IMG/VR virus record: IMGVR_UViG_3300004807_000021 | Span: 1 to 64,000 of that record | Reading direction: 5' to 3' (one strand) | Length of the DNA stretch: 64,000 bases | Origin: a virus | In this document: positions 27,494 to 63,900 of the stretch, piece after piece | Position numbering within the stretch: the first letter of the stretch is position 1 | Layout: every line of letters starts with the position of its first letter | The notes under the pieces: model-generated | What the model was told of the DNA's origin: nothing | Databases searched by the model: none | The model's input: only the letters and a program-made list of their open reading frames with translations | Translations under genes and position numbers: made by a program

Positions 27494-29263
27494 TTAAGCG
27501 TTGTCGATCTTAACAGAAACGTTGGCTGTTGGTGCACCAAATGTCCAGTTAACTGTTGATCCATCTGTAAACTGTGTACCTGTATTACGAGTTACACGGC
27601 AACGACGATTAGTAATCTTAGTTACCCAATATGTACCACCAGCGGAATCAGTAGCGTTGATAGCCATTGTTCCACCAACTGTTGGGAAAGTGTTAACTAA
27701 TTTAGCGTAGAATACACCGTCAGAACTTTCAACACGGAAACGTTGTGTGTTTTCTTGTTTGATAATGTCTGTATCTTGACGAACAACACCGCCTGTTGTA
27801 ATTAATGACTGTGCTTGGATAGCGGCATAGTTACCAGTATAACCAGTTGTTACCTGTGCGGCAAATGTCATTGTTGCAACTGCGACACCTGAACCAAATG
27901 TGATTGCTGTGTTACCACTTACTACTGTAGTAATTGTCAAACTTGATGCTGAAGTTACCACTGCGGCACTACCACCTACTGAGCTACTTAGAACAATTTC
28001 AGTTGATCCGTTAACTGCAATAATGTAGTATGTACCAGCCGTCAAGCTACCGCCTGAACCAGTTGTAACAACCTTCATACCTGGAACTAATTGGTCTGTG
28101 GAACTTACTGTTTCTTTGTACAATACAATTGATAAACCAGTTACTGCACCTGCGGCACCACCTGATAGTGCTGTACCGTCAAGTTTTGTCAATGTTAAAG
28201 TACTTGTACCATTAGTAGCACTGACCAAATAACTGTTGCCAGATGCAAAGCCGCTGTCGATGAATGCTGTGTTGCCGCCTGGTGTGCCAGTAAACGAAAC
28301 AACTTGACCAACATAGAATGTATTAGCAGATTGTGCTGTACCCAATGTGATTGAGTTGAAAGGTGTAGCACCAACTGTGATTGTACCATAAGTACCACTA
28401 GCAATAGTTGTTGCAGTTGTAGCACTAATACCAGGAGTTACTGGAACTGTGTTGATATAGCCGTTACCAGCATTAGAATATGACACACCATTAACACCAA
28501 ATGTTGCTGGGGCGATTGTCAAACCAGAACCAAATGCGGCTGTAGTTGCTTGAGCGGCAGCTAGACCAGATGTAACACCTGACTGAGCGTATGTACCGCC
28601 CGATACTACTGCTACAGAAGCTACTGATGCATAAGTTGTACCAATTGTTAGTGTTAGAGTACCTGTTGGTGTACCACCAGCAATACTAATTGCGGCGCCA
28701 CCGTAAGATGCACTTAGAGTCACTGTTGAACTTGATGTTACACTTGTTGTAATGTAATATGTTGAGCCAGCTGTTAGACCAGTTGAGCCAGTCAAACCAG
28801 CGTTAAATATAACGCTTGTTCCAGCCAAAGCTGTAATTGTACCACCAGATAATGTCATTACACCGCCCGATGTAATACTAGCAATGCTAAAACCACTGTA
28901 AGTTGTTAGTGTTGGAGTATATGTGCTTGTAACACCACCATACGTAACCGAAATGCTACCAGCTGTTGGGGCATAAGCTGTTGTTTGTGAACCAACTGCG
29001 TTAGTTGTACCAGTTAAAATAGTAAATGTTGGTGTACCAACTGCTGTTACAGCACCTTCGCCAGATAGTGCTGGCTTTGGAAATGTTGTTGTTAGAGCGG
29101 CAGCCTGCGATTGAGTATAAGAACCAGCTGTTGTAACGTTTGCGTTAAGAGCTTTTAGACCACCTAAGTCGTAGTCTGTTGGCAACAAGTTTGTGTTACC
29201 AAATGTGCCTGCGGCACCTGTATTACGTTTACCAATATATTTTTTATTTAAGGGACGTCCCAT
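27494..29263 (-). CDS. Virion structural protein (MGRPLNKK N-terminus; Thr/Gly/Ser-rich modules)
   Basis: 589-aa ORF with strong AGGAG SD and its own late promoter. Basic N-terminus, charged C-terminal domain, low-complexity beta modules between. Confidence 0.65.
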   Translation of the reverse strand: MGRPLNKKYIGKRNTGAAGTFGNTNLLPTDYDLGGLKALNANVTTAGSYTQSQAAALTTTFPKPALSGEGAVTAVGTPTFTILTGTTNAVGSQTTAYAPTAGSISVTYGGVTSTYTPTLTTYSGFSIASITSGGVMTLSGGTITALAGTSVIFNAGLTGSTGLTAGSTYYITTSVTSSSTVTLSASYGGAAISIAGGTPTGTLTLTIGTTYASVASVAVVSGGTYAQSGVTSGLAAAQATTAAFGSGLTIAPATFGVNGVSYSNAGNGYINTVPVTPGISATTATTIASGTYGTITVGATPFNSITLGTAQSANTFYVGQVVSFTGTPGGNTAFIDSGFASGNSYLVSATNGTSTLTLTKLDGTALSGGAAGAVTGLSIVLYKETVSSTDQLVPGMKVVTTGSGGSLTAGTYYIIAVNGSTEIVLSSSVGGSAAVVTSASSLTITTVVSGNTAITFGSGVAVATMTFAAQVTTGYTGNYAAIQAQSLITTGGVVRQDTDIIKQENTQRFRVESSDGVFYAKLVNTFPTVGGTMAINATDSAGGTYWVTKITNRRCRVTRNTGTQFTDGSTVNWTFGAPTANVSVKIDNA

Positions 29264-29357
29264 TTTGTTTTCTCCTGTAGAAAAACGGCGTTCTAGGCCG
29301 TACGCAGTTGGATTTCTGCATAAAACTCACCCCATGTGAGTCGTACATTGTATTTAT
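29264..29357 (-). promoter_or_regulatory. Late promoter (ATAAATA 29351-29357) plus three-hairpin 5' leader
   Basis: Minus-strand stems GACTCAC/GTGAGTT, TATGCAG/CTGCGTA and ACGGC/GCCGT packed between the promoter and the SD. Confidence 0.5.
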
Positions 29358-39916: not shown

Positions 39917-40741
39917 ATGAATAACCCCTTACAAAAGTATTTTAGACAACCCAAAATTTTTATTCGCCTGCCCAGCGGAGGAGTTTTCAATCAGCCTGGT
40001 GCTATTCAGGGCGATCCTGAACACATTCCTGTCTATGGCATGACTGGCATGGACGAAATTATAATTAAAACGCCCGACAGCCTGTTGACAGGAGAAAGTA
40101 CGGCAGCCATTGTGGCCAGTTGCTGTCCCACTATTAAAGATCCATGGGATGTCAGCAACATTGACCTGCCCATTATCATGGCAGCCATACGCATTGCCAC
40201 ATTTGGTCCCGAGCTGGGCGTTAGTCACAAGTGTGACAACTGCGGTACTGTAAACGAATATGACTTGGAACTCAATAAAATCATTGAATACTACATGACC
40301 ACACAGTTTGACAATCAATTGATTGTGGGCGAGCTGGCAGTTAAACTGCGCCCTTTGAACTATAAAGAAAGCACAGACGTCAGTATTAAAAACTTCAAGA
40401 TACAACAACAGATTTCACAAGTGGAAGCCATTGAAGATGCTGACCAACGTCAAACTGTATTGAATAGACTGTTTGTTGAACTGGCACAGGTCAACAATGA
40501 AATATTCAAAATGGTAGTGGAAAGCGTTGAGATTGACAATCAAGTGGTAACTGAACGCAGATTCCTAGAAGAGTGGATTGACAACTGCGAAAAACATGTG
40601 TTTGATCAAATCAGAGATCACAACAAGGGCAATGCAGATCGCTTTAGCATGCCCTTGTTTCCTGTCAAGTGTGACAACTGCGGAACCGAAGTCAAACTGT
40701 CTGTGGATCTAGATCAAAGCAGTTTTTTCGTTCAAGCCTAA
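39917..40741 (+). CDS. gp26: Baseplate hub assembly / tail chaperone protein (T4 gp26-like)
   Basis: I.LPS.G, M.T..DE..I, IRIATFG, two CxxC pairs (CDNCG) and a C-terminal SFF. Confidence 0.75.
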   Translation: MNNPLQKYFRQPKIFIRLPSGGVFNQPGAIQGDPEHIPVYGMTGMDEIIIKTPDSLLTGESTAAIVASCCPTIKDPWDVSNIDLPIIMAAIRIATFGPELGVSHKCDNCGTVNEYDLELNKIIEYYMTTQFDNQLIVGELAVKLRPLNYKESTDVSIKNFKIQQQISQVEAIEDADQRQTVLNRLFVELAQVNNEIFKMVVESVEIDNQVVTERRFLEEWIDNCEKHVFDQIRDHNKGNADRFSMPLFPVKCDNCGTEVKLSVDLDQSSFFVQA

Positions 40742-40962
40742 TTAGTCTCTCACCCCAAGAGATTGAACAGAAATTAATTAGGCTAGACAATCAAGTTAAA
40801 GAATTCAAACAAGACTTATTTAGAATCAGTTGGTATATGCGAGGGGGTGTAACTGTTAATGATCTACTACAGACCTACAGTTACGAAGATCGTGAAATGA
40901 TATACAACATTATCAACGACAATATCAAAGCCACTCAAGACACGCGAATGCCATTACTGTAA
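40723..40962 (+). CDS. Start-less -1 frame ORF (gp51-like), probably expressed by a programmed -1 frameshift from the gp26-like gene
   Basis: The -1 frame is open 40675-40962 and reads RSSLISLSPQEIEQKLIRLDNQVKEFKQDLFRISWYMRGGVTVNDLLQTYSYEDREMIYNIINDNIKATQDTRMPLL*. Slippery T_TTT_TTC at 40723-40729. First ATG (40837) has no SD. Absent from the ORF track. Confidence 0.65.
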   Translation, partial: FFRSSLISLSPQEIEQKLIRLDNQVKEFKQDLFRISWYMRGGVTVNDLLQTYSYEDREMIYNIINDNIKATQDTRMPLL

Positions 40963-41395
40963 AGAAGAACTGCGTTCTTCTGTTCTTCGCTTTCGCTCGA
41001 ACTATTCTAGCTTCACAATTAAACGCGAAGCGTTAAGATATTATCTAGATCGTTCAGTCACACTTTGCCCTAGCGGGCAAAGCGAATGGACATTATCTGA
41101 GTCGAACAATATCACTTAGCGTTAGCACTAGAACGTAGGCGGTCATCCGGTACCTACTCATGCTGTCTTTATATGACGGCGGGCTTGTTGCATACGCTAA
41201 CACACAACAAACCGTGGGGCTACAACCCCTCTTTTAGCCTTTTGAAATCTTTCTAAACAGCAAAACCAGTTGTATGAAGGCATATCTGATCCACGTCCTG
41301 TCAAGGATAGTTGCTGAGTACTCCTACGGCTGGAGAATTCCGTCCCTCTTATTATCGAGTTGTCATGGGCGCATGATGTTGGCCTGCGCTAGCTT
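40963..41395 (-). ncRNA. Candidate large structured non-coding RNA (~430 nt) of unrecognised class
   Basis: The only long ORF-free gap in the window. At least ten stems; several use G-U pairs only on the minus strand. Loop TTAGCG can pair with a downstream CGCTAA. Ends in a hairpin plus TTT. Confidence 0.6.
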
Positions 41396-41833
41396 TTAAC
41401 CGTTTAACTGTTTGCCTTTGATGTGGGAGCCGTGGACACGAACAGATATCTGACCATTGTAATAGTCGTCAGATTCCAATACCCTGCGTGTAAATTGTTC
41501 TCGTGCCTCTATGTATGACGTTTCGGCTTTACTGGTACAGTAAAATAATATTTCTCGCCGAAAGTTTTCTTGACCTAACTGCGCGACATCCTTGAGTAGT
41601 TCGTCTGAAGATCCATAATAGTCTCTCCAGTCTGAATCAATTTTGCCACGGATTTTCTTTTTTTTCTTAGTGCCGTTCTTTAATTTAACTACTTTGTATG
41701 TGGTTTTAGAAAATTTAGCTAGTTTTTTGCCTATGTACATACGCCCTGTGACTGTATTTGTTATAAGATATACAAACCCAACACAGGTTTCGGGCAATTC
41801 TGTTATTAATTGATTTTCATAGTACCAGGACAT
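41396..41833 (-). CDS. Minimal GIY-YIG endonuclease (Seg-like catalytic domain only)
   Basis: GFVYLITN..TGRMYIGKK, YYGSS, ENF.REIL, conserved Glu (YIEAREQ) and YYN. Only 145 aa. Confidence 0.85.
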   Translation of the reverse strand: MSWYYENQLITELPETCVGFVYLITNTVTGRMYIGKKLAKFSKTTYKVVKLKNGTKKKKKIRGKIDSDWRDYYGSSDELLKDVAQLGQENFRREILFYCTSKAETSYIEAREQFTRRVLESDDYYNGQISVRVHGSHIKGKQLNG

Positions 41834-41845
41834 TAACTATGTAGT

Positions 41846-42115
41846 TTATTCTGTCCCAGAGTCCTTGTCATTTTGGTTTGCCTTGCGTTCAGCCTTAGAT
41901 TGATCTAGATACACACGATACTGCTGTACGTGTTCTCTACGTTGTCGTGCTATAATACGGATCTGCGCTAGCCAGTAGCGCATGTTTTCGCCTGCTCGTC
42001 TTGTGCCTTTGCGTTGCCAATCCTGATTGGCCTTAAAGTATTCTCTAAAGGCCGCCATGAGTTGCTCATGCGACTCTTCATTTTGATAGGGACTGGGCTC
42101 AACGTGCTTACTCAT
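41846..42115 (-). CDS. Small basic helical protein, possibly DNA-binding (Hc1-like family)
   Basis: 89 aa. KGTRRAGENMRYWL..I....R resembles the KGxxAAGxRxR helical-hairpin pattern. Confidence 0.5.
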   Translation of the reverse strand: MSKHVEPSPYQNEESHEQLMAAFREYFKANQDWQRKGTRRAGENMRYWLAQIRIIARQRREHVQQYRVYLDQSKAERKANQNDKDSGTE

Positions 42116-43889
42116 TTACTTCTAGATCATTGGCATACGAAGTATAGCCATTCTCTTTGATAACTTTGAGCACGTTGTTGACACGGCCAATCAGTTCATC
42201 ACGGTGCGATATCAAGAAAATATTCTTTTTACGTTCACGCGACATCTTTTTAAGCACTGCCAGTGCGCCTTCAACACCCGACGCATCGAGTCCGTTGTCA
42301 ATAAGCTCGTCCACAAACAGCAAGTTAATGGGCTGATATAGACTTTCCCACACATCTCTAAAGGCCCATGACAGGGACAGTATCAAGCGATTACGCTCGC
42401 CACGGCTCAAGTTATCAAAGTCTAGGTCCTGACCCAGCTGAGTAATCAGCACACTTAGGTCGTTTTGGAACATGACAGTATGTGGCAAGCCCATCTTATC
42501 AAGATAATAAGTCAATCGATTGTTTAGATAGGCCAAGTTTTGATCAATAATCTTCTTACGAATAAAGCTATCCTTGCTGGTTAGTAGTTTAAGCAAGAAC
42601 TCTTGATGATCTTTCAGCTGTGTAAGCGTGTTGACTGTGTCCCAAGTGACTTCTTGTATGGCAGTATTGGTCAATTCATCAATCTGTTCCTGGTAAGGAT
42701 CGGACTCGCCCGCCTTGATCTGTAGCTGTGTTTCAAGAGTTTTAAGATTGTTTTGATGTTTAAGCGCCTGTTCAACGCTGTCATAGTAGGTAGTGGGCTT
42801 GCGAGGAACGTCTCCAATGGCGGCAATTTCTTTTTGTATTTTGTTGAAATCTTTTGTGACCTTGTCCAAATATTTTCGGGCCTCATCAAGGTGCTGTTGT
42901 GCCGTAGCAGTCATTTCTTCATGTTTATGGTCATGGAGAGTTTGTTCACAAGCGTGACAGGTCTTGTTAGCCAACTTGGCGAGCTCGCCGTCATACTTTG
43001 TGACGCTTCGCTCCGCTTGCGCTATCGCGCTATTTAACGTAGCTTGTTCCTTTTCTAGGCTTTTTAGCTTTGCTGATTTCTCAGCAAACTCCTTGAGCTC
43101 CGTATGCTTCGCAAGCTCAGCTTCAATATCTACGCCCTCAAGTTCTACAATAGCCCTGCCAATCTTTTCAACTTCGGTGGCATGTTGATTGCGCCAAGCA
43201 CTTTGCCTAGTTAGAATGCCATCAATACTCTTTTGAATGTTTTCATTGCTACGTTTGATAGCTTCTATGTTGGCTGATTCTTGTGTAATATTGTCTTTAG
43301 TTTGTCTAATTTGTTCTTTAAGAGCTTCAGCTTTCTCACTTAACAGAGTAATACCTAGAAGTTGTTCAATGATCACTCGCTGATCATTGGCCCGCATACT
43401 TAAAAACGGTTCTGTATATGTGTTTAATGCAACAATGTGCTTGAACATGTCGTGACTCATGCCCAGAAGATCGTCTAAATCCTTCTGAGTTTCACGCATG
43501 TCGCCCTGACTGTCATCTGTTTCTTCAACATCTTGTGCTTGATCGTTGACAAAAAATTGCATGACAGTGGGTTTGCGTCCACGTTCAATACGATAATCTA
43601 TTCCGTCTTTTTCAAAAGACAGAGTAACCAACATGTTTTTGTTGTTAATCTTGTTGATTAAGTTGTCTTTCTTGATATTAGTAAGTGCATTACCAAATAA
43701 AGCAAAACTCAATGCGTTGACAATAGTAGTCTTACCCGTACCATTACGGCTTCCGCTGTCGTCGCCGCCTTGATCTAAGTTTTCGCCTAGTACAAGTGTT
43801 AAATTTTCTTGTGCAAAGTTTACAGCCTGGGTTTGATTACCCACACTCATAAAGTTTTTAACTGTTAATTCTTTTAATTTTATTGTCAT
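42108..43889 (-). CDS. gp46: Recombination endonuclease ATPase subunit (Rad50/SbcC-like)
   Basis: Walker A NGTGKT, coiled coil with zinc hook CHAC, signature LSRGE, Walker B LFVDE and H-loop ISH. Confidence 0.95.
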   Translation of the reverse strand: MTIKLKELTVKNFMSVGNQTQAVNFAQENLTLVLGENLDQGGDDSGSRNGTGKTTIVNALSFALFGNALTNIKKDNLINKINNKNMLVTLSFEKDGIDYRIERGRKPTVMQFFVNDQAQDVEETDDSQGDMRETQKDLDDLLGMSHDMFKHIVALNTYTEPFLSMRANDQRVIIEQLLGITLLSEKAEALKEQIRQTKDNITQESANIEAIKRSNENIQKSIDGILTRQSAWRNQHATEVEKIGRAIVELEGVDIEAELAKHTELKEFAEKSAKLKSLEKEQATLNSAIAQAERSVTKYDGELAKLANKTCHACEQTLHDHKHEEMTATAQQHLDEARKYLDKVTKDFNKIQKEIAAIGDVPRKPTTYYDSVEQALKHQNNLKTLETQLQIKAGESDPYQEQIDELTNTAIQEVTWDTVNTLTQLKDHQEFLLKLLTSKDSFIRKKIIDQNLAYLNNRLTYYLDKMGLPHTVMFQNDLSVLITQLGQDLDFDNLSRGERNRLILSLSWAFRDVWESLYQPINLLFVDELIDNGLDASGVEGALAVLKKMSRERKKNIFLISHRDELIGRVNNVLKVIKENGYTSYANDLEVNE

Positions 43890-44899
43890 AGGCTGTTATA
43901 AATTGCTAGTAATGTATTTTTGTCGTAAGTATCACTGTCAATATTGACAATTTGACTAGATACAATTTGATCTACACTTTCAAATGCTTGTACATCTATG
44001 TTGGTATTGATTTCAACATCTTTCTTTTCAGCAATAAGTGTAAGTTCTCTAATGTCATAGTCTGCTACAAACTTTTCTTTGATAAAACTAGCTTCTTCAT
44101 ATGTGATATCTATGTCTAGTGTAACACGTAAATGTTGCTTGGGCAATATTATTTTGTCCGCTTCATCAATTAGTTGACTTAATTTAATAGTTCTAAAGGT
44201 AGGTTGTCCTGGCCAACTATGATATTCTGGAGTTCCTCCCCATTCTAAAGTCATCATTCCACGCTCGTCGTCCCATGCATCTGCATAATTGTGCGGAAAT
44301 GCATTGCCAATATAGATCATATTGCCTTTTTGTTGACGTTTATGAAAGTGTCCGCTAAATCCTAGCTCATATTGTTTGAAACTATCTAACTGAATCTCTC
44401 CGTGATCCGGCATTTGCACCATTGCATTCATGAAGAAGCTGGGGAGTTCGAAGTGTCCGAAGATGTATTTTCCGCCTTTTTTGCTAATGGATCTCCACTC
44501 TTCGCCAACCAACCACGGACAAAGGGTGACATCTCCAATAGTAGTAGGCTCGTGTACGACAGTGACACCAGGAATATACTTTCCAAATTCCACACTGTGT
44601 ATGTCCCGCTTATCCTTGTAATATAAATCATGATTACCAGGAAAGAAATAGAAGTTATCAAACGCCTGCCCCAGCTTTTCCAGGGCCCTAAGGCTATAAT
44701 CCATTGTAGTAATGTTAAGGCTATTACGATTATGATGCCAATCGCCCATAAAGATACCTGTATCACAACCTTCCTCCTTTGCTTTTGCAATGTACCAATC
44801 TACAAAGTCTTCACAGTCTTGGTTGTGTACACTACTGTTAGACTTTAATCCGAAATGAATGTCCGTAAAACAAGCTACTTTCTTAAACAACTGTGTCAT
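43886..44899 (-). CDS. gp47: Recombination endonuclease nuclease subunit (Mre11/SbcD-like)
   Basis: Metallophosphoesterase motifs TDIHFG, GDWHH, GNHD, GHFE and SGHFH. Confidence 0.95.
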   Translation of the reverse strand: MTQLFKKVACFTDIHFGLKSNSSVHNQDCEDFVDWYIAKAKEEGCDTGIFMGDWHHNRNSLNITTMDYSLRALEKLGQAFDNFYFFPGNHDLYYKDKRDIHSVEFGKYIPGVTVVHEPTTIGDVTLCPWLVGEEWRSISKKGGKYIFGHFELPSFFMNAMVQMPDHGEIQLDSFKQYELGFSGHFHKRQQKGNMIYIGNAFPHNYADAWDDERGMMTLEWGGTPEYHSWPGQPTFRTIKLSQLIDEADKIILPKQHLRVTLDIDITYEEASFIKEKFVADYDIRELTLIAEKKDVEINTNIDVQAFESVDQIVSSQIVNIDSDTYDKNTLLAIYNSL

Positions 44900-54300: not shown

Positions 54301-54967
54301 TCAATATGTACACAGTGCAGACTACGACAGTAGAATAGATCCAGGATCTAGTAATATCATGGATGTGTATGTATTAACAAAAAATTACGATATTGCATTC
54401 AGACAATGGTTGTCATCAGGCGGCACGTTACCGTTACCACCAAGCTCTGATGAATTACATTCGTTGTTATCAACAAATTTAGATTTAATTAAATCTATAT
54501 CAGATGAAATTATATATCATCCAGTCAGTTACAAATTATTATTTGGATCAAATGCAGATCCTAGTGTACAAGCTACCTTCAATGTTATGATCAACCCATC
54601 GGGTACTGCATCCAACTCTGATATTAAAGCAAGAATACTCACAGCTATAAACACATTTTTTAGTTTAGATAACTGGAACTTTGGCGACTCTTTTTATTTT
54701 ACAGAATTATCTACTTACGTTATGAATCAATTAACACCTGACATTATTAATTTTGCTATTGTTCCAACACAGCCAGGATTATATTTTGGCAATTTGTTTG
54801 AAATCCAATGTCCTAGCGATCAGATTTTAATAAGCTCAGCTACTACAGATAATATAGTTGTGGTGTCTGGCTTTACTGGATCTAATCTAAAAACAGTAAC
54901 ACCTCAAAATACAAATTTTTCAAATAATCAATCGGTTACTAGCACAGCGTATGGGGGCAATTTGTAA
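51326..54967 (+). CDS. gp6: Baseplate wedge protein (T4 gp6 family, extended)
   Basis: DF..LR..MI.Y, NE/RE.FL..A..R.SV, FSDG.FG..P and ES..SIK.NAP..Y..QNRMITGEDY. Confidence 0.88.
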   Translation: MSSTDRQNNLLVSENWQKIYQSFKNADFQSYDFENLRRTMIEYVRTNFPEDFNDYIESSEYLALIDLIAFVGQSIAFRVDLNARENFLELAERRESVLRLSRMINYTAHRNVPANGLLKFSAISTTETVFDSNGRNLSGQYVTWNDPSNSNWHNQFISVLNAALPSTHQFGNPIDSATIYGVPTAQYRFNSNPTEVPVYPFTKNIAGRSMNFEITSTTFKNQTYIYEEPPKIGNALAFIYSDDGHSASSPGTGFFFNFVQGTLNQSTFTITNPTANQTIDINTQQINDTDVWLYSLNQQTGLEDTLWTQVPSTSGSNSIYNSINNSIKNIFSIITKAQDAISLSFSDGTFGNLPIGNFRVYYRTSNGLNYTINANDIVNVLFSVPYTSASNQTETLTISLSLATSVINSAPSESNASIKTNAPQTYYTQNRMITGEDYNISPLSANLQIAKVKAVNRTSSGISRYFDLLDPTGKYSTTNLFGDDGIIYQETYTYSTNFSYVTDLDIQGVIDNTIYDILNSPDLRNFYYANFLDYLSVSINAAWTSVTIDSNTVSGFINAPGQTIPYIVGSSTATDLKYITPGSLIKFIAPAGQCFNLTTNTLITSTVNFVGNISGNTLVITNVTGNVVTGMSLSGGTVAAGTYIVSGSGTTWIVNKSQTATATTGSISADNTANYIWAQVVKVTDDGTAGGSGVLTDGSGPIVLDKVIPSKAILSQIMPQFNRTLTPSIITAMIDLIKANDNFGLRYDALTTTWQIVYANNLNSVNAFSLANQGDTTLQNLDSSWILLFTSNTVQYTINTRKLRYIFESDAELTFYFDSNVPVYDSTSSSTVLDTVKILSVNPQPDLPTPFTQDLTWQIVSEYYGQDGYIDPKKIVVTFADSTGSGVVDNPQLFVDIVSPLTGDVTTKYIVEERYTISSGQEDYRYVANDPILGPVIVLPSQGNASFASYADGTYFYFIDTATVVKLNLSGVLKLVPTLDYKVYVGRSKLKFQYVHSADYDSRIDPGSSNIMDVYVLTKNYDIAFRQWLSSGGTLPLPPSSDELHSLLSTNLDLIKSISDEIIYHPVSYKLLFGSNADPSVQATFNVMINPSGTASNSDIKARILTAINTFFSLDNWNFGDSFYFTELSTYVMNQLTPDIINFAIVPTQPGLYFGNLFEIQCPSDQILISSATTDNIVVVSGFTGSNLKTVTPQNTNFSNNQSVTSTAYGGNL

Positions 54968-57900
54968 TGGCTATACCTTCTAAAAGAAATGGATTTAGTG
55001 TAAATTTATTACCTAAATTTTATCAGACCGACGCTAATAAAAAGTTTTTACAATCGACAGTTGATCAATTATACCGTCCAGGTACACTGACAAAAACTAG
55101 CGGATATATTGGCCGAAAAAATGCTAAGGCCAGTACAGGTGAAGATGTTTATGTCAAGGCTGCTGATTCAGTAAGACAAAATTATCAATTAGAACCTGCA
55201 ATCACTATTAAAGATAATTTAGACAATGTAGTATTTTATAAAGATTATATTGATTATATTAATCAACTTTCAGTATTTGGTGGCAATACTAGTAACCACA
55301 CTCGCTTAAACAACCAAGAAATGTATTCTTGGGATCCACATATTGACTGGGATAAATTTGTTAATTTTCAAAACTATTACTGGTTGCCTTATGGCCCTGA
55401 AACCATCACGGTATACGGGCATGAAATTCCATTAGAAAGTTCTTTTTCAGTTCAAGTACAAGCAGAAGGTTCCAACAACCAATACATTTTTACCCCAGAT
55501 GGATTAACACCTAACCCAGTATTGCGACTATACAAAGGTCAAACATACACATTTTATATTGATAGTATTGGTAATCCTTTCAGTATTAAAACTCTAAGAT
55601 CAACAGGCACAACCGATCGTTATATATTTCCAAATGCTATAGACAACTATGCAGTTGAATCAGGAACAATAACATTTGTGGTTCCAATTGATGCTCCATC
55701 AATACTTTATTATCAAAGTGAAACTGATATTAATCTTGGCGGAACCATACAAATATATGCCGCATCAGATGCTACATCTATCAATGTTGAATCTGAAATA
55801 CTAGGAAAAGTTAATTATACGTTGTCTAACGGAACTCCGTTGAGCAATGGAATGAAATTAAATTTCAAAGGACAAGTATATCCAACAAGTTATGCTACGG
55901 GTGAATACTATGTAGAGGGCGTAGGCACTGCTATTAAACTAATCGATTCTAATACTTTAGAAATTATTGGAGCTTATACAACATCTATTAATGTAGAATT
56001 TGATCAAACACCGTTTGATCAAGAACCATTTGATACTGCTAGAGGATACGCAGGCAATTTAGATTATATATTAGTTAATCGAGCCAGTAAGGATCACAAT
56101 CCGTGGAGTCGTTATAATCGATGGTTTCATAAAGATGTAATTTCTACAAGTGCTATGTATAATGGCAATAATCCGTCGTTAGATCAAACACTTAGAGCAA
56201 AAAGACCTATCATAGAGTTTTCAGCAGATCTACGACTTTTCAATTTTGGCACAGTTGCAACTGTGGATGTTGATTTAGTTGACAGCTTCACTACAACAGC
56301 GTTTGCAACTATAGAAGGTGCCGCTGGATATAACATCGACGGAGTTACAGTACAAGCAGGTATGCTGATATTATTTACAGCAGACACTGATCCACTAGTT
56401 GCTGGTAAAATTTTTCAAGTAGAATACATTGATGTGTTACATTTAGATACCGGAAGCAATCAATTGCATCTAGTAGAAGTAGCATCTCCAATGAAAGATC
56501 GAGTGGTGTTAGCACGTCAAGGCATTACTAATCAAGGAAGCATGTACTGGTACAATGGTACCAACTGGACAAAAGCACAACAAAAAACGTCAGCTAATCA
56601 GCCGCCACTATTTGATATTTACGATTCTAACGGATTTAGTTACGGCGACTCATCTGTTTATTCTGGATCAACATTTAAGGGAACTGCGTTGTTCAGTTAT
56701 GCTACTGGTTCGGGTACTAACGATTTAGTTCTAGGATTTCCTTTACAATATCAAAATGTAAGTAATATAGGTGATATTGTTTTTAATTTTAACCTAGCAA
56801 TAGATACTTTTCAATATAAAAATCTAAACACTAATTCACTAGAATCTAAAGCCATCGATGTAGGATTTTTATCCAGTTTAGATTATTCTAACAATACTAT
56901 CTATTTGAACGGCTGGCAATTGTGCAAGACTAAAAATCTACAAGCCGCAATTAGAATCTATGATAATTCTGGATTAGTAAATAATTTTCCAGTTGATATC
57001 TATGACAATATAAACAATTTAACAGATCTCGAAGTTAAAATTTATGTAAACGGACAGAGACTTGATAAATCTTTATGGTCAATAGTTGCTAAAAACACAT
57101 ACTATCAGGTAGTATTAAACAAAGATCTAGCACCAACTGACATACTAACAATTAGAGCTTTTTCAGATCAACCAATAAATTCAAACGGATTTTATGAAAT
57201 TCCGTTAAATCTACAAAACAATCCGTTGAATGATGATATTGGTAATTTTACACTAGGTGAAGTAATTGACCATGTCAACAGTATTGTTGATAATACAGCA
57301 TCATTTTCTGGAAATTTTCCAGGAGCAAGCAATCTTCGCGATTTAGGAAACATAACACAATACGGTACAAAGTTTGTTCAACACAGTGGTCCTTTAAGTC
57401 TTGCAGTATATCATATTACAACAGAATCAAACAATGTTGTCAAAGCGTTGACACAAGCCAAAACTGATTATAGTGATTTCAAAAGACTTTTTATAAACAC
57501 TGCCAGTTCTTTAGGTGTACATACTGATCCTGTACAATTTGTAGAATTAATAATGACAAAAATTAATTCTAACAAACCTAAAGTGGCTCCTTACTATTTC
57601 AGCGATATGGTTCCGTACGGCGCCAATGTTAAAACTGACCTGTCTGTAGTTGATTATAGAATTAAAAAATATCCGTTAAACAACACATTTAATTTAACAA
57701 CGCTTTCAAATAAAGCAGTTGGGGTATATCTAAACAATTCACAATTATTATATGGAACTCAATATATATTTGATGACCAAGGCTTCATTGAAATATCATC
57801 GAGCGTGTCATTAAGTAACGGTGATATTATTACAACTATAGAATATGATAGTACAGACGGTAGTTTTGTTCCAGCCACTCCAACTAAATTAGGGTTATGG

Positions 57901-60900
57901 CCAAAGTTTGAACCAAGAAAATATCTTGATACAACACTGATTTCTCCACAAAATGTAATACAAGGTCATGATGGCAGTATTGTCTTGGCTTACAATGACT
58001 ACCGAGATGATATACTATTAGAATTAGAAAAAAGAATTTTTAATAACATTAAAGTTGAATACGATCCAACAATCTTTGATCTTACAGATATTATTCCTAG
58101 TTACAATAGAGATACACCTTATTCTAAAAAAGAATTTGATAGTGTGTTATCTACTAATTTTTATAGTTGGATTGGGTTAGTCGGTAAGGATTTATCAACT
58201 CCATTGAATTACGATAGAACAAATAGTTTTACTTATAATTACTCGCTAAACTCTGCTCCCAACGGTACTTCTTTACCAGGCTACTGGAGAGGTGTGTATA
58301 AATGGTTGTTGGACACAGATAGACCTCATTTGTGCCCTTGGGAAATGCTAGGATTTTCAGTAAGACCGACTTGGTGGACAAAGTTATATGGAGACGCTCC
58401 TTATACTAGCGATAACATTCCTATGTGGACTGATATTGCAAACGGCGTAATAAAAGCACCGGGAGTTCCAGCAACTGTAAATGCAAAATATGTAAAACCA
58501 TTTTTAATCAAACACATACCAGTAGATAGCTCTGGAAACTTAATTAGTCCACAGGCTTCCGGTTTAGCATCGGGCCTTGTGCAACCAAACATTGATAATA
58601 ATTTTGTGTTTGGAGACGTGAGTCCTGTAGAAAATGCTTGGACCCGTAGTAGTTATTATCCTTTTAGTGTAATTTCAACTGCAATATTACTTAATCCTGC
58701 AAAAACTTTTGGATTGATATTAGACAGACATAATATTATTCGAAATCTAGCCAATCAATTGATTTATAAGCCAACTGGATTACGTATCAAACCAGCAGAT
58801 ATTATTTTACCATCAATTTATTCTAGTATTACTCGTGTACAAACAGCCGGCCTCGTTAACTATGTTGTAGATTTAATTTTTAATTATATTTTTAGTAATG
58901 ACATAGCAGGGTATAATAGCTATTTGTTTGATTTGCAAAACATGACTCCTCGACTTGGATATCGTGTAGGAGCATTTACAAATCAGGCTCAATTTAATAT
59001 ATTATTAGAATCTAAAACTCCTAGTAGTACTGGTAACGTGTTTATACCAGTAGAAAATTATAAAGTTTTTCTTAATAAATCATCAACTGTAAAAAAATTA
59101 GTTTATAGTGGAGTTATTATTACCAAACTATCTACTGGTTTTGAAATTAAAGGATATAGTTTAACACAACCTTACTTTAATTATTATCAATATAATGGTT
59201 CAGGAGCCACCATAAATGTAGGCGGAATCAGCGAAAGTTATGCAGAGTGGACTGTTGGTCAACAATACATTGCAGGTACCGTAATATTATACAATGGAAA
59301 GTACTACAGAGCATTAGCTAATTTCACAGCATTAAGTACATTTAATTCTCAAGTACTAGCATCATTACCTTCATTGCCTATGACTGGAGGAGCTACAGCA
59401 ACTTTGCGCAATTCATGGGATAAAGAAACAACTACAGTTGCTCCTTATGGTACATTATTTGCCACCGTGCAACAAGTAGTAGACTTTTTGTTAGGCTACG
59501 GTGAGTGGTTAAAAGATCAGGGATTTGTATTTGATAATTTTAATAACAACTTAGGCACTGTGTCTAACTGGGAAACAAGTGCAAGAGAATTTATGTTCTG
59601 GACTACACAAAACTGGAGTACAGGACACGACAAGTGGGAAGACTGGGAACCAAATAAATCTTACAAATACGCAACTATTGTTCGATATGACGGTGATTAT
59701 TATAGTGCTTTACAAAATATCCCATTAACTAACGAATTTGAATTCACAAAATGGAATTTATTATCGGGCCTCAACGTAGAAGGCGCAAGTGTAATTAGTT
59801 TAAGCCCTAGTGCAAATACTATTAATTTTAATACAGTATTATCTGTAGTGGACAGTATTACTAACGGTTTTAATTCATACGAGATTGTTAAAGTTAATGG
59901 AACACCGTTTGATGTACAAAATCTTGATAGTTATAGACAAGAAAATACTGTAAGTTATACTCCAAGAAACAGTGACGGCATCTATGGTGCAAGTTTTTAT
60001 CTAGTACAAAATGAACACGTAATTGTTATAGATAATAAAACAATTTTTAATGATGTCATTTATAGTCCAACAACTGGTTACAGACAAGAAAGATTAAAAA
60101 TATCAGGCTACACCACAACCGATTGGTATGGTGGTCTTGATATCCCAGGATTTATTTTTGATAGTGCTGTTGTAAAAGAATGGCAACCTTGGCAAGATTA
60201 TAATATTGGGGATATTGTAAACCATCACAGTTATTATTATTCTGCAAATGCGTTCATAGCTGGATCCGCTGTTTTCAATTCTTCAAATTGGAAAAAATTA
60301 GATAAAAAACCAACACCGGCTATTATTCCTAACTGGACTAATATTGCTACACAGTTTACAGATTTTTATAGCCTAGAAGTTGATAGTTTCGATGCTCCTC
60401 AACAACAAATGGCTCAGCACTTAATAGGATATCAAAAACGTCAATACTTGAATAATATTATTCAAGACGATGTTAGTGAATTCAAATTTTATCAAGGCAT
60501 GATCCGAGACAAAGGTACTCAGAATGTTCTTAATAAATTGTTTGGTGTCTTAAATTCTGAAAATAAAGAAAGTCTAACTTTTTATGAAGAGTGGGCTATT
60601 CGAGTATCGCAATACGGTGCTAGTAAAGCATTTGAGGATATTGAATTTGTATTAGATCAGGCAAAATACAATATTAATAATCCTCAAGGAACAGTACTGA
60701 TAAAACGAGTTGATCCTACAATAAATCCATTTATTATTCAACTTACTCCTAATGACATTTACGTCAAGCCTCACGGATATAATTCAAGACCTTTCTTAGA
60801 ATTAAAGACAACAGTAGATTCTGAAAACGGTCCAGTTGCTATTAATCAGTTTTTAAGAAGTGCAGGTTACGTTGATAATACAGATGTATTTGTATCTATT

Positions 60901-63900
60901 GGCCAGTTAAAAGATCTAACAGGGCAGTCGGCATCTTCAATTGTTGTTGGATTAAGTTATAAAATTTCAACAGTTGGTACAACCGATTTTACACAAATAG
61001 GTGCTAGTGCTAGTACAGTTGGCACTACATTTGTTGCTACTGGAACTGGAACTGGAACTGGAACAGTGGTTTTAGATATTTCACAAATAAATGAAGGTGC
61101 ATATTTCTGGTGTGCATTTGATGGTGCAAATAGTTGGAACGTTTATAGATTTACAGATATAAATTTGAATGTAACAAATGTAACTTACAACAAAACCACG
61201 CATACTCTTACACTAACAACACAATATGAGACATCATTGAAGGTTGGGACTTATATAGGCATAGGACAGTCTGAATCTATTCAGGGCTTTTATAAAATTG
61301 ACAGTATTACATTAAACAACATTAATATTATAGCCCCTGGATTATCGGTACCTTCGCCTTTTACTGATTTAGATAATTTAACAGTCTATACATTGTTATC
61401 TCAACGTACTGGGTATATTGATACTATAGATAATATTCTTCCTGCTAGATTAGAAGATGGCAATATTGTATGGACTGATTATGCTAGTTCTGATATCAAT
61501 AGCGGTTGGGCAACTTGGAAATATAAAAAAGTTTATCAATCTACTACGAAAAATTCACCTGTAGTTGGTGCCGGAATAAATTTTGCTCAGTTTATTGCTG
61601 TAAGTAAAAACGGAAATACAGCCGCGGTGTCTGTTGGAACATCGCAAATTGCCACTTATGACAAAGTGTCAACAGCAGTTCCTTGGACACAGCGACAGTT
61701 AATACAACCGCCATTCAACAGTGTAGGTTCACCAGCATCAGCAACCGTAATTAGTACCGCGGCAGTTAGTCCTGATGGAACATGGTTGGCTACTGGAAGT
61801 CCTACATCGGGTTCTTCTAGCACATACTATATTGGAGTATATTCTCCTGCAACTGTATATGCTGTTAACACTATCGTGTCTTACAACAGTATACTTTATC
61901 AAGCATTGTTCCCAGTGCCTGCCGGAAATACACCAAATCAAAACAGTGTTTTCTGGAATCAAATTTTTTACACACCTATATCTGATACATCCACTTACAA
62001 TACTGGAGTAACAGCAAATGGTATGATAACGCTGTATCAAAAAGATGCAAACAATATCTATCAGATAGTTGATTCTATTCTAAGTCCAGTTATTTCAAAT
62101 GAAAAATTTGGATCTGCTATTGTATTTGATTCAAGCAATATGTATGTAAGTGCTCCTGCCTATAACAATAACACTGGAAGAGTTTATCAATTTTCGTATA
62201 CAACTACCCCGCAAGTAACGTCAATTTACGACGAAGTTAATAGTACAGGCACTGTATTAAAATTACAATCTACTGCTGGAATATCTGCTGGAATGATAAT
62301 TTCTGGTAATGATATCTTTGGAAATTCTGCTTTTAATTCCGATCAAGTAGTTGAATATGTTCTTACAAGATTATTGTTTTCACCAGCTATAGACACAACT
62401 GGGAAAGAAGTAATTAATACTGTTTATAATACTAGTTCAACACAAATAAATGTTTCTAGTATCCTATCAGGCGCTACTGTTTCTCTATATAATAGTTCAT
62501 ATGCTTACAGTATTCCAAACTTAACAGTATCGTCAACAGGATTGACGTCAATTAACCAGTTGGTCACTACACATACGTTGTCTAGCGGTGGCGTTACTGG
62601 CACAAATACATTTATTTTAACAACAACTGTATCTGACATAGCTGTTGGATATCTCATTGTTGGTTATGGATTACCGCCAAGCAGTTATGTTGGCGCAATA
62701 TCAAGTGTCGGTGCGCCCGCCAAAACACAAATTACTGTAGTAGATTCGCAAGGTGCATCTAGGGCTATACAAAATTTTATAGCAACAGGTACTGGAACGT
62801 ATGCTTTTTATAAAATTATAAATTACAATTTTGTTGAAATAAAAGGTCAAAAAGATCTTGTAACTAATTCATCGACCTTACCAATTACTCGAGTAACATT
62901 TGGTAGTACAAGTTTTCCTAACGGAGATCCTACTTTAACCTTTAATATAAGTTCTACATACGTTCAGAGTAGTAAAGCTGTAATTTTATCATCTGCACCT
63001 GATTTAACTCCAAATGGAAGTTTAACATTCTCATCAGTTGGATGGTCATATACTCGATCATTTGCTGGCGATACAGTTAATAGTTATTTTGGATCTCAGT
63101 TAGCATTGAGTCGAGATGGTAGCACATTAGCAGTGTCAGCAATAGGCGGTTCTGTAGGAAAAGTTTATGTGTATCAAGCAGGAGTCTTAATACAGACCTT
63201 GACAGGATTTTTACCAACATTCGGTCAAGGAATTACAGTATCAGATGATGGAACATATATTGCTGTAAGCGATAACACCACTGGAGTTTCTAATATAAAT
63301 CAACGAGGCAGTGTTGGTGTTTATCAACTGTCATCAAACAACACGTATCAATTAGTTTCAAACCTAGTACCGCACACTCCTGAAACAAATGGAGAATTTG
63401 GTACTTCGATCTCCTTCATGAATGACTACAAGACACTAGCAGTTTATAGTCGTTATGGATCTAGTACAACAACAACTACTTTTGATAAAACTTCTGTAGC
63501 AACTACTTTTGATAAAAAATCTACCAATTTTATTACCACACAGATTGCCAGCGGACGGGTCGATGTGTATGATAGATATAATGTAAATTGGGTTTACAGT
63601 GAAAGTTTACCTCACACATTTGATTTTACTAGCGGCTATGGCCAAGGATTGTCAGTGGGCGCAAATAATATATTTGTTGGGGCACCACTATTAACAGTTG
63701 GTACAGCAGGAGCTCAGGGACTATTAACAATTTATTCAAAAGATCCAAATGCAGTATCGTGGACTATAGATAAAACACCTGTGCCTATAGCCGATGTATC
63801 AAAAATTAAGAAAGCATTTTTGTATAGCAGATCAACAAATAAATTATTAACTTATATTGATATAATTGATCCTTTACAGGGAAAAATTGCTGGACCTGCT

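What the first reader, a model, noticed from the sequence alone, without database searches (positions are those of the whole stretch)
40963..41833. Catalytic-domain-only GIY-YIG nuclease followed immediately by a ~430-nt pseudoknotted structured RNA: candidate nuclease-RNA system
Seen: 40963-41395 is the only long ORF-free stretch in an otherwise tightly packed 64 kb, and it starts at the nuclease stop codon on the same strand. Minus-strand stems include GCGCA/TGCGC, CTC/GAG, CTCC/GGAG, a multibranch domain closed by CAGCAA/TTGCTG (holding TCCT/AGGA and TATG/CATA), and GGGG/CCCC. There is also a 13-bp stem GGTTTGTTGTGTG/TATGCAACAAGCC with four G-U pairs that would be A-C mismatches on the plus strand, plus GTAGG..CGG-ATGA-CCG/CCTAC and CGCTTTGCCC-GCTA-GGGCAAAGTG. 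The loop of the 13-bp stem (TTAGCG, 41195-41200) is exactly complementary to CGCTAA at 41116-41121, a long-range pseudoknot. Known: T4 Seg/I-TevI GIY-YIG homing nucleases need a separate C-terminal DNA-binding region, and this 145-aa protein ends just after the catalytic domain. TnpB and IscB nucleases get their specificity from an adjacent structured RNA. Inference: the RNA may be a scaffold or guide partner of the nuclease, or an independent new large phage ncRNA. I do not recognise it as a group I/II intron, RNase P RNA or tmRNA.
Basis: partly seen in the sequence, partly recalled or inferred. Interest (0 to 1): 0.85.

Follow-up and report, generated by a model that had tools for sequence, protein, structure and literature searches.

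The report
Full-length Polynucleobacter-1 twin-box phage RNA
The gene-free gap behind a small nuclease gene of this uncultured freshwater T4-like phage encodes a real, doubly knotted RNA of about 433 bases; its first third is the catalogued orphan motif Polynucleobacter-1, nothing indicates that it guides the nuclease, and its uncatalogued tail shows one 7-letter word twice to a reader that is still unknown.

Summary
Window 40963-41395 (minus strand) is a conserved structured RNA of about 433 nt. About 250 viral contigs carry it. On 63 sequences under 90% alike, 92.6% of pair cells form standard pairs, 65 pairs show changes on both sides, and no shuffle out of 500 reaches this.

It is only partly new. 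Nucleotides 2-141 are a full-length match to Rfam RF01718 (Polynucleobacter-1, 90.9 bits, function unknown). The remaining 290 nt match no Rfam family and are the more widely conserved part. A sister lineage joins the same 3' core to a different 5' module.

The nuclease-partner idea is not supported:
- The upstream GIY-YIG gene is replaced by an unrelated PD-(D/E)XK nuclease in some phages, and separated from the RNA by inserted genes in others.
- Its family occurs in hundreds of cultured phages without the RNA.
- No GIY-YIG residue tracks the RNA's variable words.

The 3' core carries the same 7-nt word twice (41092-41098 and 41040-41046). The two copies are identical in 197 of 198 distinct RNAs, across more than 12 variants. 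This points to an unknown common reader acting in trans.

Earlier follow-ups in this scan reached the same reading on sister phages.

The parts
40963..41395 (-). Whole structured RNA, about 433 nt (RNA position p = 41396-p)
   Evidence: Conserved end to end in about 150 of 199 loci (nhmmer positions 2-439). Conservation falls off beyond position 440. Covariation was tested.
41255..41394 (-). 5' module part 1: Polynucleobacter-1 motif (Rfam RF01718), RNA positions 2-141
   Evidence: cmscan 90.9 bits (gathering score 37), E 8e-20, model positions 1-141 of 141. Helices 1-8 covary.
41182..41213 (-). 13-bp stem (183-195/202-214) with conserved loop GUUAGCGU
   Evidence: 12 of 13 pairs change on both sides, with up to 6 pair types per position (helix 12).
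41195..41200 (-). Pseudoknot 1, 5' strand (loop UUAGCG, positions 196-201)
   Evidence: Pairs with 275-280. All 6 pairs change on both sides and 98.4% of cells are paired (helix 13).
41116..41121 (-). Pseudoknot 1, 3' strand (CGCUAA, positions 275-280)
   Evidence: Same as for the 5' strand.
41173..41177 (-). Pseudoknot 2, 5' strand (GUCAU, positions 219-223)
   Evidence: Pairs with 250-254. Pair counts: CG 34 / UA 29; GC 38 / AU 23; UA 46 / GC 10 (helix 14). The complement is also kept in type-B RNAs (GUUGA/UCAAC).
41142..41146 (-). Pseudoknot 2, 3' strand (AUGAC, positions 250-254)
40963..41179 (-). 3' core (positions 217-433). This is the universally conserved part and matches no Rfam family.
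   Evidence: Found with either 5' module: A5+C3 in 196 loci, B5+C3 in 35. No Rfam match even at E up to 10. It is the most conserved segment, with column identity 0.75-0.89 over positions 241-360.
41092..41098 (-). Twin box 1 (AGAUAAU, positions 298-304)
   Evidence: Identical to box 2 in 197 of 198 distinct RNAs across more than 12 variants. Mutual information between 298 and 350 is 0.94 bit, against at most 0.13 with any other column. In 10 of 10 independent supported pairs the two change together.
41040..41046 (-). Twin box 2 (AGAUAAU, positions 350-356)
41063..41083 (-). Hairpin between the boxes (positions 313-333)
   Evidence: 8 pairs, 3 of them with changes on both sides (helix 21).
40963..40981 (-). 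Terminal hairpin (positions 415-433)
   Evidence: Stem sequences differ between phages while staying paired. Median dG is -9.5 kcal/mol. It is not followed by a U-run in most loci.
41396..41833 (-). Single-domain GIY-YIG nuclease gene (145 aa). It is a neighbour, not shown to be a partner.
   Evidence: PF19835, E 2.5e-33. phrog_447, E 2e-37. AlphaFold2 model with pLDDT 86.8. Fold matches: I-TevI catalytic domain Z 7.1, PD-T4-3 Z 6.2, UvrC N-terminal domain Z 4.9, T4 EndoII Z 4.6.
41846..44899 (-). Upstream genes of the same strand: 89-aa basic ORF, gp46-like (593 aa) and gp47-like (337 aa)
   Evidence: This gene order is kept across the clade.
39917..40962 (+). Convergent late genes: baseplate protein (PF12322) and a conserved 41-aa ORF that ends where the RNA ends

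Best explanation
Window 40963-41395 (minus strand) is a gene for a stable, compactly folded non-coding RNA of about 433 nt. It acts in its own right, not as a helper of the adjacent nuclease.

How it is made (inferred). It is the last element of the early or middle gp47-gp46-(p89)-nuclease transcription unit. It starts within 30 nt of the preceding stop codon and ends at a covarying terminal hairpin.

Architecture (shown).
- The 5' module is the Polynucleobacter-1 motif followed by a 13-bp stem.
- That module is locked to the 3' core by pseudoknot 1. A second pseudoknot folds the core.
- The 5' module is exchangeable. A sister lineage carries a different 'type B' module of about 185 nt on the same core.

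Function (inferred). The core presents two copies of one 7-nt word, each followed a few nucleotides later by a hairpin. The copies have changed together many times. Most likely a dimeric or twice-bound factor acting in trans reads both words, so the RNA works as the scaffold of a ribonucleoprotein or as a decoy.

The neighbouring GIY-YIG protein is most simply a free-standing structure-specific DNA nuclease of the recombination gene cluster. In some phages a PD-(D/E)XK nuclease takes its place.
For: RNA and fold.
- 92.6% of pair cells form standard pairs, against 80% in shuffles and about 38% with partners slid. 65 pairs change on both sides. The covariation score is 0.402 against 0.163, reached by 0 of 500 shuffles.
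- Both pseudoknots covary.
- G-U cells number 476 against 130 A-C cells.
- No reading frame stays open across the element.

Identity. RF01718 matches at full length. The 3' part has no Rfam match.

Independence from the nuclease.
- Counts of distinct RNAs by 5' module and upstream gene: A+GIY 136, A+PDDEXK 4, B+GIY 19, B+PDDEXK 5, other upstream ORFs 16.
- The GIY-YIG family occurs without the RNA in cultured phages and in L174.
- No GIY-YIG residue tracks the box variant.

Not a leader of the downstream gene.
- 17 of 60 loci, including this window, have no same-strand gene downstream.
- The downstream ORFs belong to at least 4 unrelated families.
- In 46 of 46 loci that have such an ORF, a TAAATA late-promoter core lies between the RNA and the ORF.

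Co-transcription with the upstream genes.
- The gap to the upstream same-strand stop codon is at most 12 nt in 49 loci and 13-30 nt in 20, whatever the upstream gene.
- No TAAATA lies within 70 nt upstream in any of 62 loci.

Twin boxes. They are identical in 197 of 198 RNAs. Mutual information is 0.94 bit for 298/350 and 0.77 bit for 302/354. On a tree built without the box columns, each box changes at least 54 times, and in 10 of 10 independent pairs the two go the same way (p about 0.002).
Against: - No transcript has been seen. The only runs holding related sequence are probably DNA.
No complementary word occurs at a fixed place within 3 kb either side. A phage's own word is not enriched in its flanks. 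None of GIY-YIG, gp46, p89, p41 or the baseplate protein covaries with the boxes.
- A nuclease gene of some kind lies directly upstream in 164 of 180 loci that have enough upstream sequence to judge. I attribute this to conserved gene order, but it could reflect a functional link.
- The local fold around the boxes is unresolved. The predicted box1:box2 helix never covaries and is broken in the GCAU and GAAU variants. An alternative helix gained no support.
Confidence: 0.6

Rival explanations
1. Nuclease-RNA system: the RNA is a scaffold or guide of the nuclease encoded directly upstream, and the twin boxes are its specificity words.
For: - A nuclease gene (GIY-YIG or PD-(D/E)XK) lies directly upstream in 164 of 180 loci with room to judge.
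- The RNA starts within 30 nt of the upstream gene's stop codon.
- The nuclease has no DNA-binding domain.
- The twin boxes are short variable words inside a conserved scaffold.
Against: - Two unrelated nuclease folds would have to use the same RNA. All four combinations of nuclease type and 5' module exist.
- 16 loci have unrelated genes inserted between the nuclease and the RNA.
- The GIY-YIG family is widespread without the RNA.
- Mutual information between box state and any GIY-YIG residue is at most 0.12-0.28 bit, below the values for gp46.
- Box variation is narrow, mostly purine transitions, and no complementary target was found.
Confidence: 0.1
2. Cis-regulatory leader (5' UTR) of the gene downstream. 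This is how the Polynucleobacter-1 motif was provisionally classed in 2010.
For: - 43 of 60 loci have a same-strand ORF starting 17-65 nt after the RNA.
- The table in Weinberg et al. 2010 marks the motif as a likely cis-regulator (PMC2864571).
Against: - This window and 16 other loci have no such gene.
- The downstream ORFs fall into at least 4 unrelated families with no Pfam or PHROG match.
- In 46 of 46 loci a TAAATA late-promoter core lies between the RNA and the ORF, so the late transcript would not contain the RNA.
- 290 further structured nucleotides and a terminal hairpin separate the motif from any start codon.
Confidence: 0.08
3. The twin boxes, or the whole stretch, act at the DNA level. 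It would be a protein-bound site such as a replication origin, a recombination hot spot or a homing-nuclease target at the junction of the early and late gene clusters.
For: - Direct repeats that change in parallel are typical of binding sites for one DNA-binding protein.
- The stretch lies between convergent transcription units, next to recombination nuclease genes.
- Nuclease genes are swapped at this spot, as at homing sites.
- The word AGATAAT occurs 23 times in the window against 12.0 +/- 3.4 expected.
Against: - 65 base pairs with compensatory changes and a 476:130 excess of G-U over A-C show selection on one RNA strand.
- The spacing between the boxes varies (37-48 nt between them).
- Nuclease identity falls in step with gp46 identity, and a nuclease is present in every locus. 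That is unlike sporadic homing genes.
Confidence: 0.1
4. A purely structural 3' end of the operon mRNA, serving as a barrier to exonucleases or a terminator, with no role in trans.
For: - It always sits at the 3' end of the upstream genes.
- It ends in a terminal hairpin.
Against: - 433 nt with two pseudoknots, near-invariant single-stranded segments and co-varying twin words is far more than 3'-end protection needs.
- In 43 of 60 loci further genes follow.
Confidence: 0.07

Closest known systems
Polynucleobacter-1 RNA motif (Rfam RF01718; Weinberg et al. 2010, Genome Biol 11:R31, PMC2864571)
   Same: Positions 2-141 match the whole model at 90.9 bits and all its helices covary. The fresh-water habitat and unknown function also agree.
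   Different: - The catalogued motif is only the first third of a 433-nt RNA.
- The uncatalogued 3' 290 nt are tied to it by a pseudoknot and are the more widely conserved part.
- In a sister lineage the motif is replaced by another 5' module.
- The provisional cis-regulatory reading does not fit.
Omega RNAs of TnpB and IscB (OMEGA systems; HEARO RNA)
   Same: It is a large structured RNA encoded next to a small nuclease gene on the same strand.
   Different: - The nuclease is GIY-YIG or PD-(D/E)XK, not RuvC/HNH.
- There are no transposon ends.
- There is no freely variable guide at an RNA end.
- The nuclease is swappable and occurs widely without the RNA.
- There is no Rfam match.
Large orphan phage-associated ncRNAs such as GOLLD and ROOL (from my own knowledge of the Breaker and Weinberg motif surveys)
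   Same: It is several hundred nucleotides long and multiply pseudoknotted. It is carried by phages, found by comparative genomics, and has no known function. It is likely to be the core of a particle or ribonucleoprotein.
   Different: - It has no sequence or structure match to those Rfam families.
- It is confined to one syntenic slot of fresh-water T4-like phages.
- It carries the twin co-varying 7-nt words.
Stand-alone GIY-YIG nucleases: T4 endonuclease II (2wsh), the I-TevI catalytic domain (1ln0) and PD-T4-3 (9u75)
   Same: The neighbouring 145-aa protein has the GIY-YIG fold (Z 7.1, 6.2 and 4.6). Like EndoII it lacks a separate DNA-binding domain.
   Different: - Sequence identity to the solved structures is only 12-20%.
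- It carries a long inserted beta-hairpin (residues 40-66).
- It sits at a fixed position beside gp46/gp47.

Membership tests
Rfam RF01718 Polynucleobacter-1 | Covariance-model score above the curated gathering score over the full model | tested here: met
   90.9 bits against 37, model positions 1-141 of 141, at 41255-41394 on the minus strand.
Rfam RF01718 Polynucleobacter-1 | The model's helices are kept by compensatory changes in relatives | tested here: met
   Helices 1-8 are 85-99.7% paired, with 24 of 30 pairs changed on both sides.
Rfam RF01718 Polynucleobacter-1 | Located in the 5' UTR of a downstream gene (the provisional cis-regulatory classification) | tested here: not met
   This window and 16 of 59 other loci have no downstream same-strand gene. 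A TAAATA late-promoter core intervenes in 46 of 46 loci that do have one.
RNA-guided nuclease systems (OMEGA: TnpB/IscB with omega RNA) | RuvC and/or HNH nuclease that carries an RNA-binding scaffold | tested here: not met
   The protein is a single GIY-YIG domain.
RNA-guided nuclease systems (OMEGA: TnpB/IscB with omega RNA) | Nuclease and RNA always occur together | tested here: not met
   The nuclease is replaced or displaced in 25 distinct loci. The family occurs without the RNA.
RNA-guided nuclease systems (OMEGA: TnpB/IscB with omega RNA) | A freely variable guide segment complementary to a target | tested here: inconclusive
   The only variable words are the twin 7-mers, which vary narrowly. 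No complement was found within 3 kb either side or enriched in the flanks. Whole genomes were not searched.
Free-standing GIY-YIG homing endonucleases (T4 Seg proteins, I-TevI) | GIY-YIG catalytic domain | tested here: met
   PF19835 at E 2.5e-33. Fold match to 1ln0 at Z 7.1, rmsd 2.7 A over 82 residues.
Free-standing GIY-YIG homing endonucleases (T4 Seg proteins, I-TevI) | C-terminal DNA-binding domain joined by a linker | tested here: not met
   The protein is 145 aa and the domain model covers residues 3-129. The phrog_447 profile is 148 positions long.
Free-standing GIY-YIG homing endonucleases (T4 Seg proteins, I-TevI) | Sporadic presence or absence among close relatives | tested here: not met
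   It is present at the same slot in nearly all loci. It is 70-93% identical where gp46 is 49-90% identical.
Intrinsic (Rho-independent) terminator | G+C-rich hairpin followed by a U-run | tested here: inconclusive
   The terminal hairpin covaries and has a median dG of -9.5 kcal/mol. Only 1-4 U follow in the next 10 nt in 60 of 63 loci. The consensus scan did not call it a terminator.
tRNA, tmRNA, group I/II introns, RNase P RNA, 6S RNA and other Rfam families | A match to the family model | tested here: not met
   There is no tRNA or tmRNA in the window. In 40600-41900 there is no Rfam match other than RF01718 at E below 0.5.

The most novel reading that the evidence does not exclude
The twin 7-nt boxes are exchangeable specificity words. 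The RNA would be the programmable subunit of a two-fold symmetric ribonucleoprotein, whose protein could still be a nuclease encoded nearby or elsewhere in the phage. It would recognise a nucleic-acid target through both copies of the word. That would be a new kind of RNA-specified recognition system in T4-like phages.
Probability: 0.08. Interest if true: 0.9.

Novelty: new variant of a known kind. Interest (0 to 1): 0.6.

Why it matters
Polynucleobacter-1 has sat in Rfam since 2010 as an orphan 141-nt motif, provisionally classed as a leader. The data here change that picture in three ways.
- It is the exchangeable front end of a doubly pseudoknotted RNA of about 430 nt.
- That RNA is fixed in a large clade of uncultured fresh-water T4-like phages, with hundreds of contigs in IMG/VR.
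- The conserved business end is the uncatalogued 3' core.

RNAs of this size and complexity are few. They have usually turned out to be ribozymes or cores of ribonucleoprotein machines.

The parallel, many-times-repeated co-change of two identical 7-nt words is an unusual signal, and it is directly testable. Whatever reads them should be recoverable with the RNA as bait.

The work also removes a tempting but unsupported 'RNA-guided GIY-YIG' story. It suggests instead that the small nuclease, mislabelled 'NAD synthetase' in many phage records, is a stand-alone recombination-cluster nuclease that a PD-(D/E)XK enzyme can replace.

Tried and rejected
- Transcript evidence. No RNA holder is listed. 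The two lake-water 'metatranscriptomic WGS' runs are probably DNA, and what they hold are contigs of relatives.
- blastn of the stretch against 50,697 phage records found no match.
- Bacterial copies. The 5' pattern gave only chance hits in genome contigs. RF01718 was not found in 3 and then 151 Burkholderiaceae genomes searched, so the Polynucleobacter instance behind the Rfam name was not recovered.
- The 34 viral loci that matched only the pattern have no RF01718 and are chance matches.
- Reader of the twin boxes:
  - No complement at a fixed place within 3 kb either side, and no third copy.
  - No enrichment of a phage's own word or its complement in about 1.5 Mb of flanks.
  - No covarying residue in GIY-YIG, gp46, p89, p41 or the baseplate protein.
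  - No covarying column elsewhere in the 3' core.
- Local fold at the boxes. The RNAalifold helix 296-301/346-352 never covaries and is broken in the GCAU and GAAU variants. The alternative helix 289-293/340-344 is no better with a sequence's own partner than with a swapped one (-0.75 against -0.59 +/- 0.13 kcal/mol).
- The GIY-YIG protein found nothing in PDB by sequence or by Foldseek. Only VIA-align gave the GIY-YIG folds.
- A literature search for RNA-guided GIY-YIG systems found nothing relevant. Only the 2010 paper names the motif.
- The apparent second ORF-free region at 54968-61737 is an artefact of an open-ended giant ORF.
- No covariance models were built. nhmmer and the Rfam model sufficed.
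Full report
**What is there.** The window comes from a 74.7-kb IMG/VR record of a T4-like phage, estimated about 21% complete. On the minus strand the order is gp47-like (43886-44899), gp46-like (42108-43889), an 89-aa basic ORF (41846-42115) and a 145-aa GIY-YIG ORF (41396-41833; PF19835, E 2.5e-33). Then come 433 nt with no ORF longer than 41 aa (40963-41395). They meet a convergent 41-aa ORF and a baseplate gene on the plus strand. With ORFs of at least 80 aa this is the only long gap in the window. A seeming 6.8-kb gap near the window's end is one open-ended ORF of at least 3011 aa.

**Part of it is known.** Rfam 15 matches 41255-41394 (minus strand) to RF01718, the Polynucleobacter-1 RNA. 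The match scores 90.9 bits against a gathering score of 37 and covers model positions 1-141 of 141. Weinberg et al. 2010 described this motif from fresh-water metagenomes and one Burkholderiales genome. They marked it as a likely cis-regulator and gave no function (PMC2864571). The remaining 292 nt have no Rfam match even at E up to 10. On their own they fold with z = -4.35.

**The whole 433 nt is one conserved RNA.** I ran two scans of IMG/VR. One used a pattern from the motif. The other used the GIY-YIG protein, which found at least 587 relatives. Together they gave 198 loci. A profile built from full-length matches hits 151 of the 199 loci then held, including the window's own, and most hits run from profile position 2 to 439. 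Column identity stays at 0.6-0.9 throughout, peaks at RNA positions 241-360, and drops after 440.

I aligned 63 sequences under 90% identical (A1) and counted pairs for a structure of 95 pairs.
- 92.6% of cells form standard pairs, against 80.0% in shuffles and about 38% with partners slid.
- 65 pairs change on both sides.
- The covariation score is 0.402 against 0.163, reached by 0 of 500 shuffles.
- The 13-bp stem (183-195/202-214) changes on both sides at 12 of 13 pairs.

A covariation scan over all column pairs turned up a second long-range helix, 219-223 with 250-254. Its pair counts are CG 34 / UA 29, GC 38 / AU 23 and UA 46 / GC 10. G-U cells outnumber A-C cells 476 to 130, which fixes the strand. 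No reading frame stays open across the element.

**Where it sits and how it is probably made.** The order gp47, gp46, (p89), nuclease, RNA, then the convergent baseplate genes, is kept across a clade in which gp46 falls to about 50% identity. In all 69 distinct loci examined the RNA starts within 30 nt of the stop codon of a same-strand ORF, and within 12 nt in 49 of them. No TAAATA late-promoter core lies in the 70 nt upstream in any of 62 loci. I infer that the RNA is transcribed with the upstream genes and perhaps cut out of that transcript. This step is not shown.

Downstream, 43 of 60 loci have a same-strand ORF 17-65 nt after the terminal hairpin. This window and 16 others do not. Those ORFs fall into at least four unrelated families with no Pfam or PHROG match. 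In 46 of 46 such loci a TAAATA core lies between the RNA and the ORF, against 7 of 27 loci that have no ORF there. The downstream genes are therefore late genes with their own promoter, and the RNA is not their leader.

**Is it the nuclease's partner?** Five lines of evidence say no.
1. In L013, L056, L069 and L102 the ORF directly upstream is a 172-173-aa PD-(D/E)XK nuclease instead (PF24608, E 1e-27 to 2.5e-29; phrog_244). The RNA is unchanged.
2. In other loci, ORFs of 98-356 aa lie between the nuclease and the RNA. They include a methyltransferase-like protein, and in L089 a 458-aa radical-SAM/B12 protein next to a 151-aa ORF.
3. A scan with a pattern from the 3' core found a sister form of the RNA. 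It has the same core (positions 217-433) behind a different 5' module of about 185 nt, 'type B', which has no Rfam match. Both nuclease types occur with both modules: A+GIY 136, A+PDDEXK 4, B+GIY 19, B+PDDEXK 5, other upstream ORFs 16.
4. The nuclease family is a family of single-domain proteins and is far wider than the RNA. The phrog_447 profile is 148 positions long. Many records label the family 'NAD synthetase'. Homologues 38-47% identical lie in 522 cultured-phage records, including cyanophages, Melnitz, ACP17 and the phiM12 group. In ACP17, S-SRM01 and P-HM1 there is no room for such an RNA, and none of the four genomes inspected, Melnitz-3 included, has RF01718. L174 carries a copy 81% identical in another context, with no RNA in its 57-kb contig.
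5. The only variable words of the RNA share at most 0.12 bit (position 298) to 0.28 bit of mutual information with any GIY-YIG residue. That is less than with gp46.

The AlphaFold2 model (pLDDT 86.8) is a GIY-YIG fold. Its best matches are the I-TevI catalytic domain (Z 7.1), PD-T4-3 (6.2), the UvrC N-terminal domain (4.9) and T4 EndoII (4.6). Its position beside gp46/gp47, and its replacement by a protein of a PHROG family annotated as a Holliday-junction resolvase, suggest a structure-specific DNA nuclease. This is an inference.

**The twin boxes.** The 3' core holds the word AGAUAAU twice, at 41092-41098 and 41040-41046. Each copy is followed a few nucleotides later by a hairpin. Across 198 distinct RNAs of both types, the two 7-mers are identical in 197. 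More than 12 variants occur, among them AGAUAAU, GGAUAAU, GGAUGAU, AGAUGAU, GGAUGAA, GCAUAAU and GAAUAAU.

Mutual information between positions 298 and 350 is 0.94 of 1.0 bit, against at most 0.13 with any other column. For 302 and 354 it is 0.77. On a tree built without the box columns, each box changes at least 54 times. In 10 of 10 independent, supported pairs that differ at 298, position 350 goes the same way (p about 0.002). That tree rests on about 200 columns, so the raw count of changes is rough.

This is same-letter covariation, not Watson-Crick covariation. The helix that RNAalifold draws between the boxes never covaries and is broken in two variants. An alternative helix has no support. 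I found no complementary word nearby, no enrichment in the flanks, and no covarying neighbour protein. The simplest reading is a common reader acting in trans that binds both words, such as a dimeric protein.

**Relation to earlier work in this scan.** I reached these conclusions first and then looked up earlier notes. Follow-up agents had examined sister phages in six other reports and came to the same reading: a full-length Polynucleobacter-1 RNA, independent of the nuclease, carrying twin boxes with an unknown reader. Their reports are not independent evidence, but every point repeated here was tested on this window.
- the counts for the PD-(D/E)XK replacement;
- the type-B 5' module and the table of all four combinations;
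- the late promoter between the RNA and the downstream genes;
- the negative tests for a box reader in the neighbourhood.

**Verdict.** The 'new nuclease-RNA system' reading is not supported. The 'independent large phage ncRNA' reading is supported, with one third of the RNA already in Rfam. I rate it a new variant of a known kind, of solid interest to RNA biologists because of its size, its two pseudoknots, its modular 5' end and the unexplained twin boxes.

Noticed in passing
window 29261-29341 (-): A second orphan Rfam motif, freshwater-2 RNA (RF02980), matches at 71.9 bits against a gathering score of 49.9. It lies in front of a structural gene.
   Followed up: no
window 40837-40962 (+): The 41-aa ORF just after the baseplate gene is conserved in relatives (37-73% identity by tblastn). 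It ends exactly where the RNA's terminal hairpin ends. Earlier first-reader notes (e1-6079726, e1-6079721) propose that it is reached by a -1 frameshift from the 274-aa gene. I did not test this.
   Followed up: no
window 54967-64000 (+): One reading frame is open for at least 3011 codons and runs off the window's end. It starts at an ATG that overlaps the stop of the 1213-aa gene before it. It is a giant protein, probably structural.
   Followed up: partly
L013:3963-4484, L056:1666-2184, L102:13755-14273: In some sister phages a 172-173-aa PD-(D/E)XK nuclease (PF24608; phrog_244, annotated 'RusA-like Holliday junction resolvase') occupies the slot of the GIY-YIG gene between gp46 and the RNA.
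   Followed up: partly
L348:3671-4250 and about 35 other loci (for example L427, L355, L368, L341): Type-B form of the RNA. A different, conserved 5' module of about 185 nt is joined to the same 3' core. It has no Rfam match.
   Followed up: partly
loci such as L002:4633-5733, L004:11745-12827, L068:4617-5588, L013:4979-5917: The space between the RNA and the baseplate genes is a variable slot. It holds late genes of at least 4 unrelated families with no Pfam or PHROG match, each preceded by a TAAATA core.
   Followed up: partly
window, whole: The box word AGATAAT occurs 23 times on both strands, against 12.0 +/- 3.4 expected (0 of 100 shuffles reach 23). Flanks of sister loci show no enrichment specific to a phage's own word.
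   Followed up: partly
public phage records, for example NC_041997.1 9483-9905 and NC_015280.1 157848-158333: Homologues of the 145-aa GIY-YIG protein (phrog_447) are annotated 'NAD synthetase' in many cultured T4-like phage genomes. This looks like a propagated misnomer.
   Followed up: no
L434 (record of L180), record positions 2430-2495: A divergent RNA copy has both boxes changed in the same way, to CACAUGA. This is a further instance of the parallel change.
   Followed up: no
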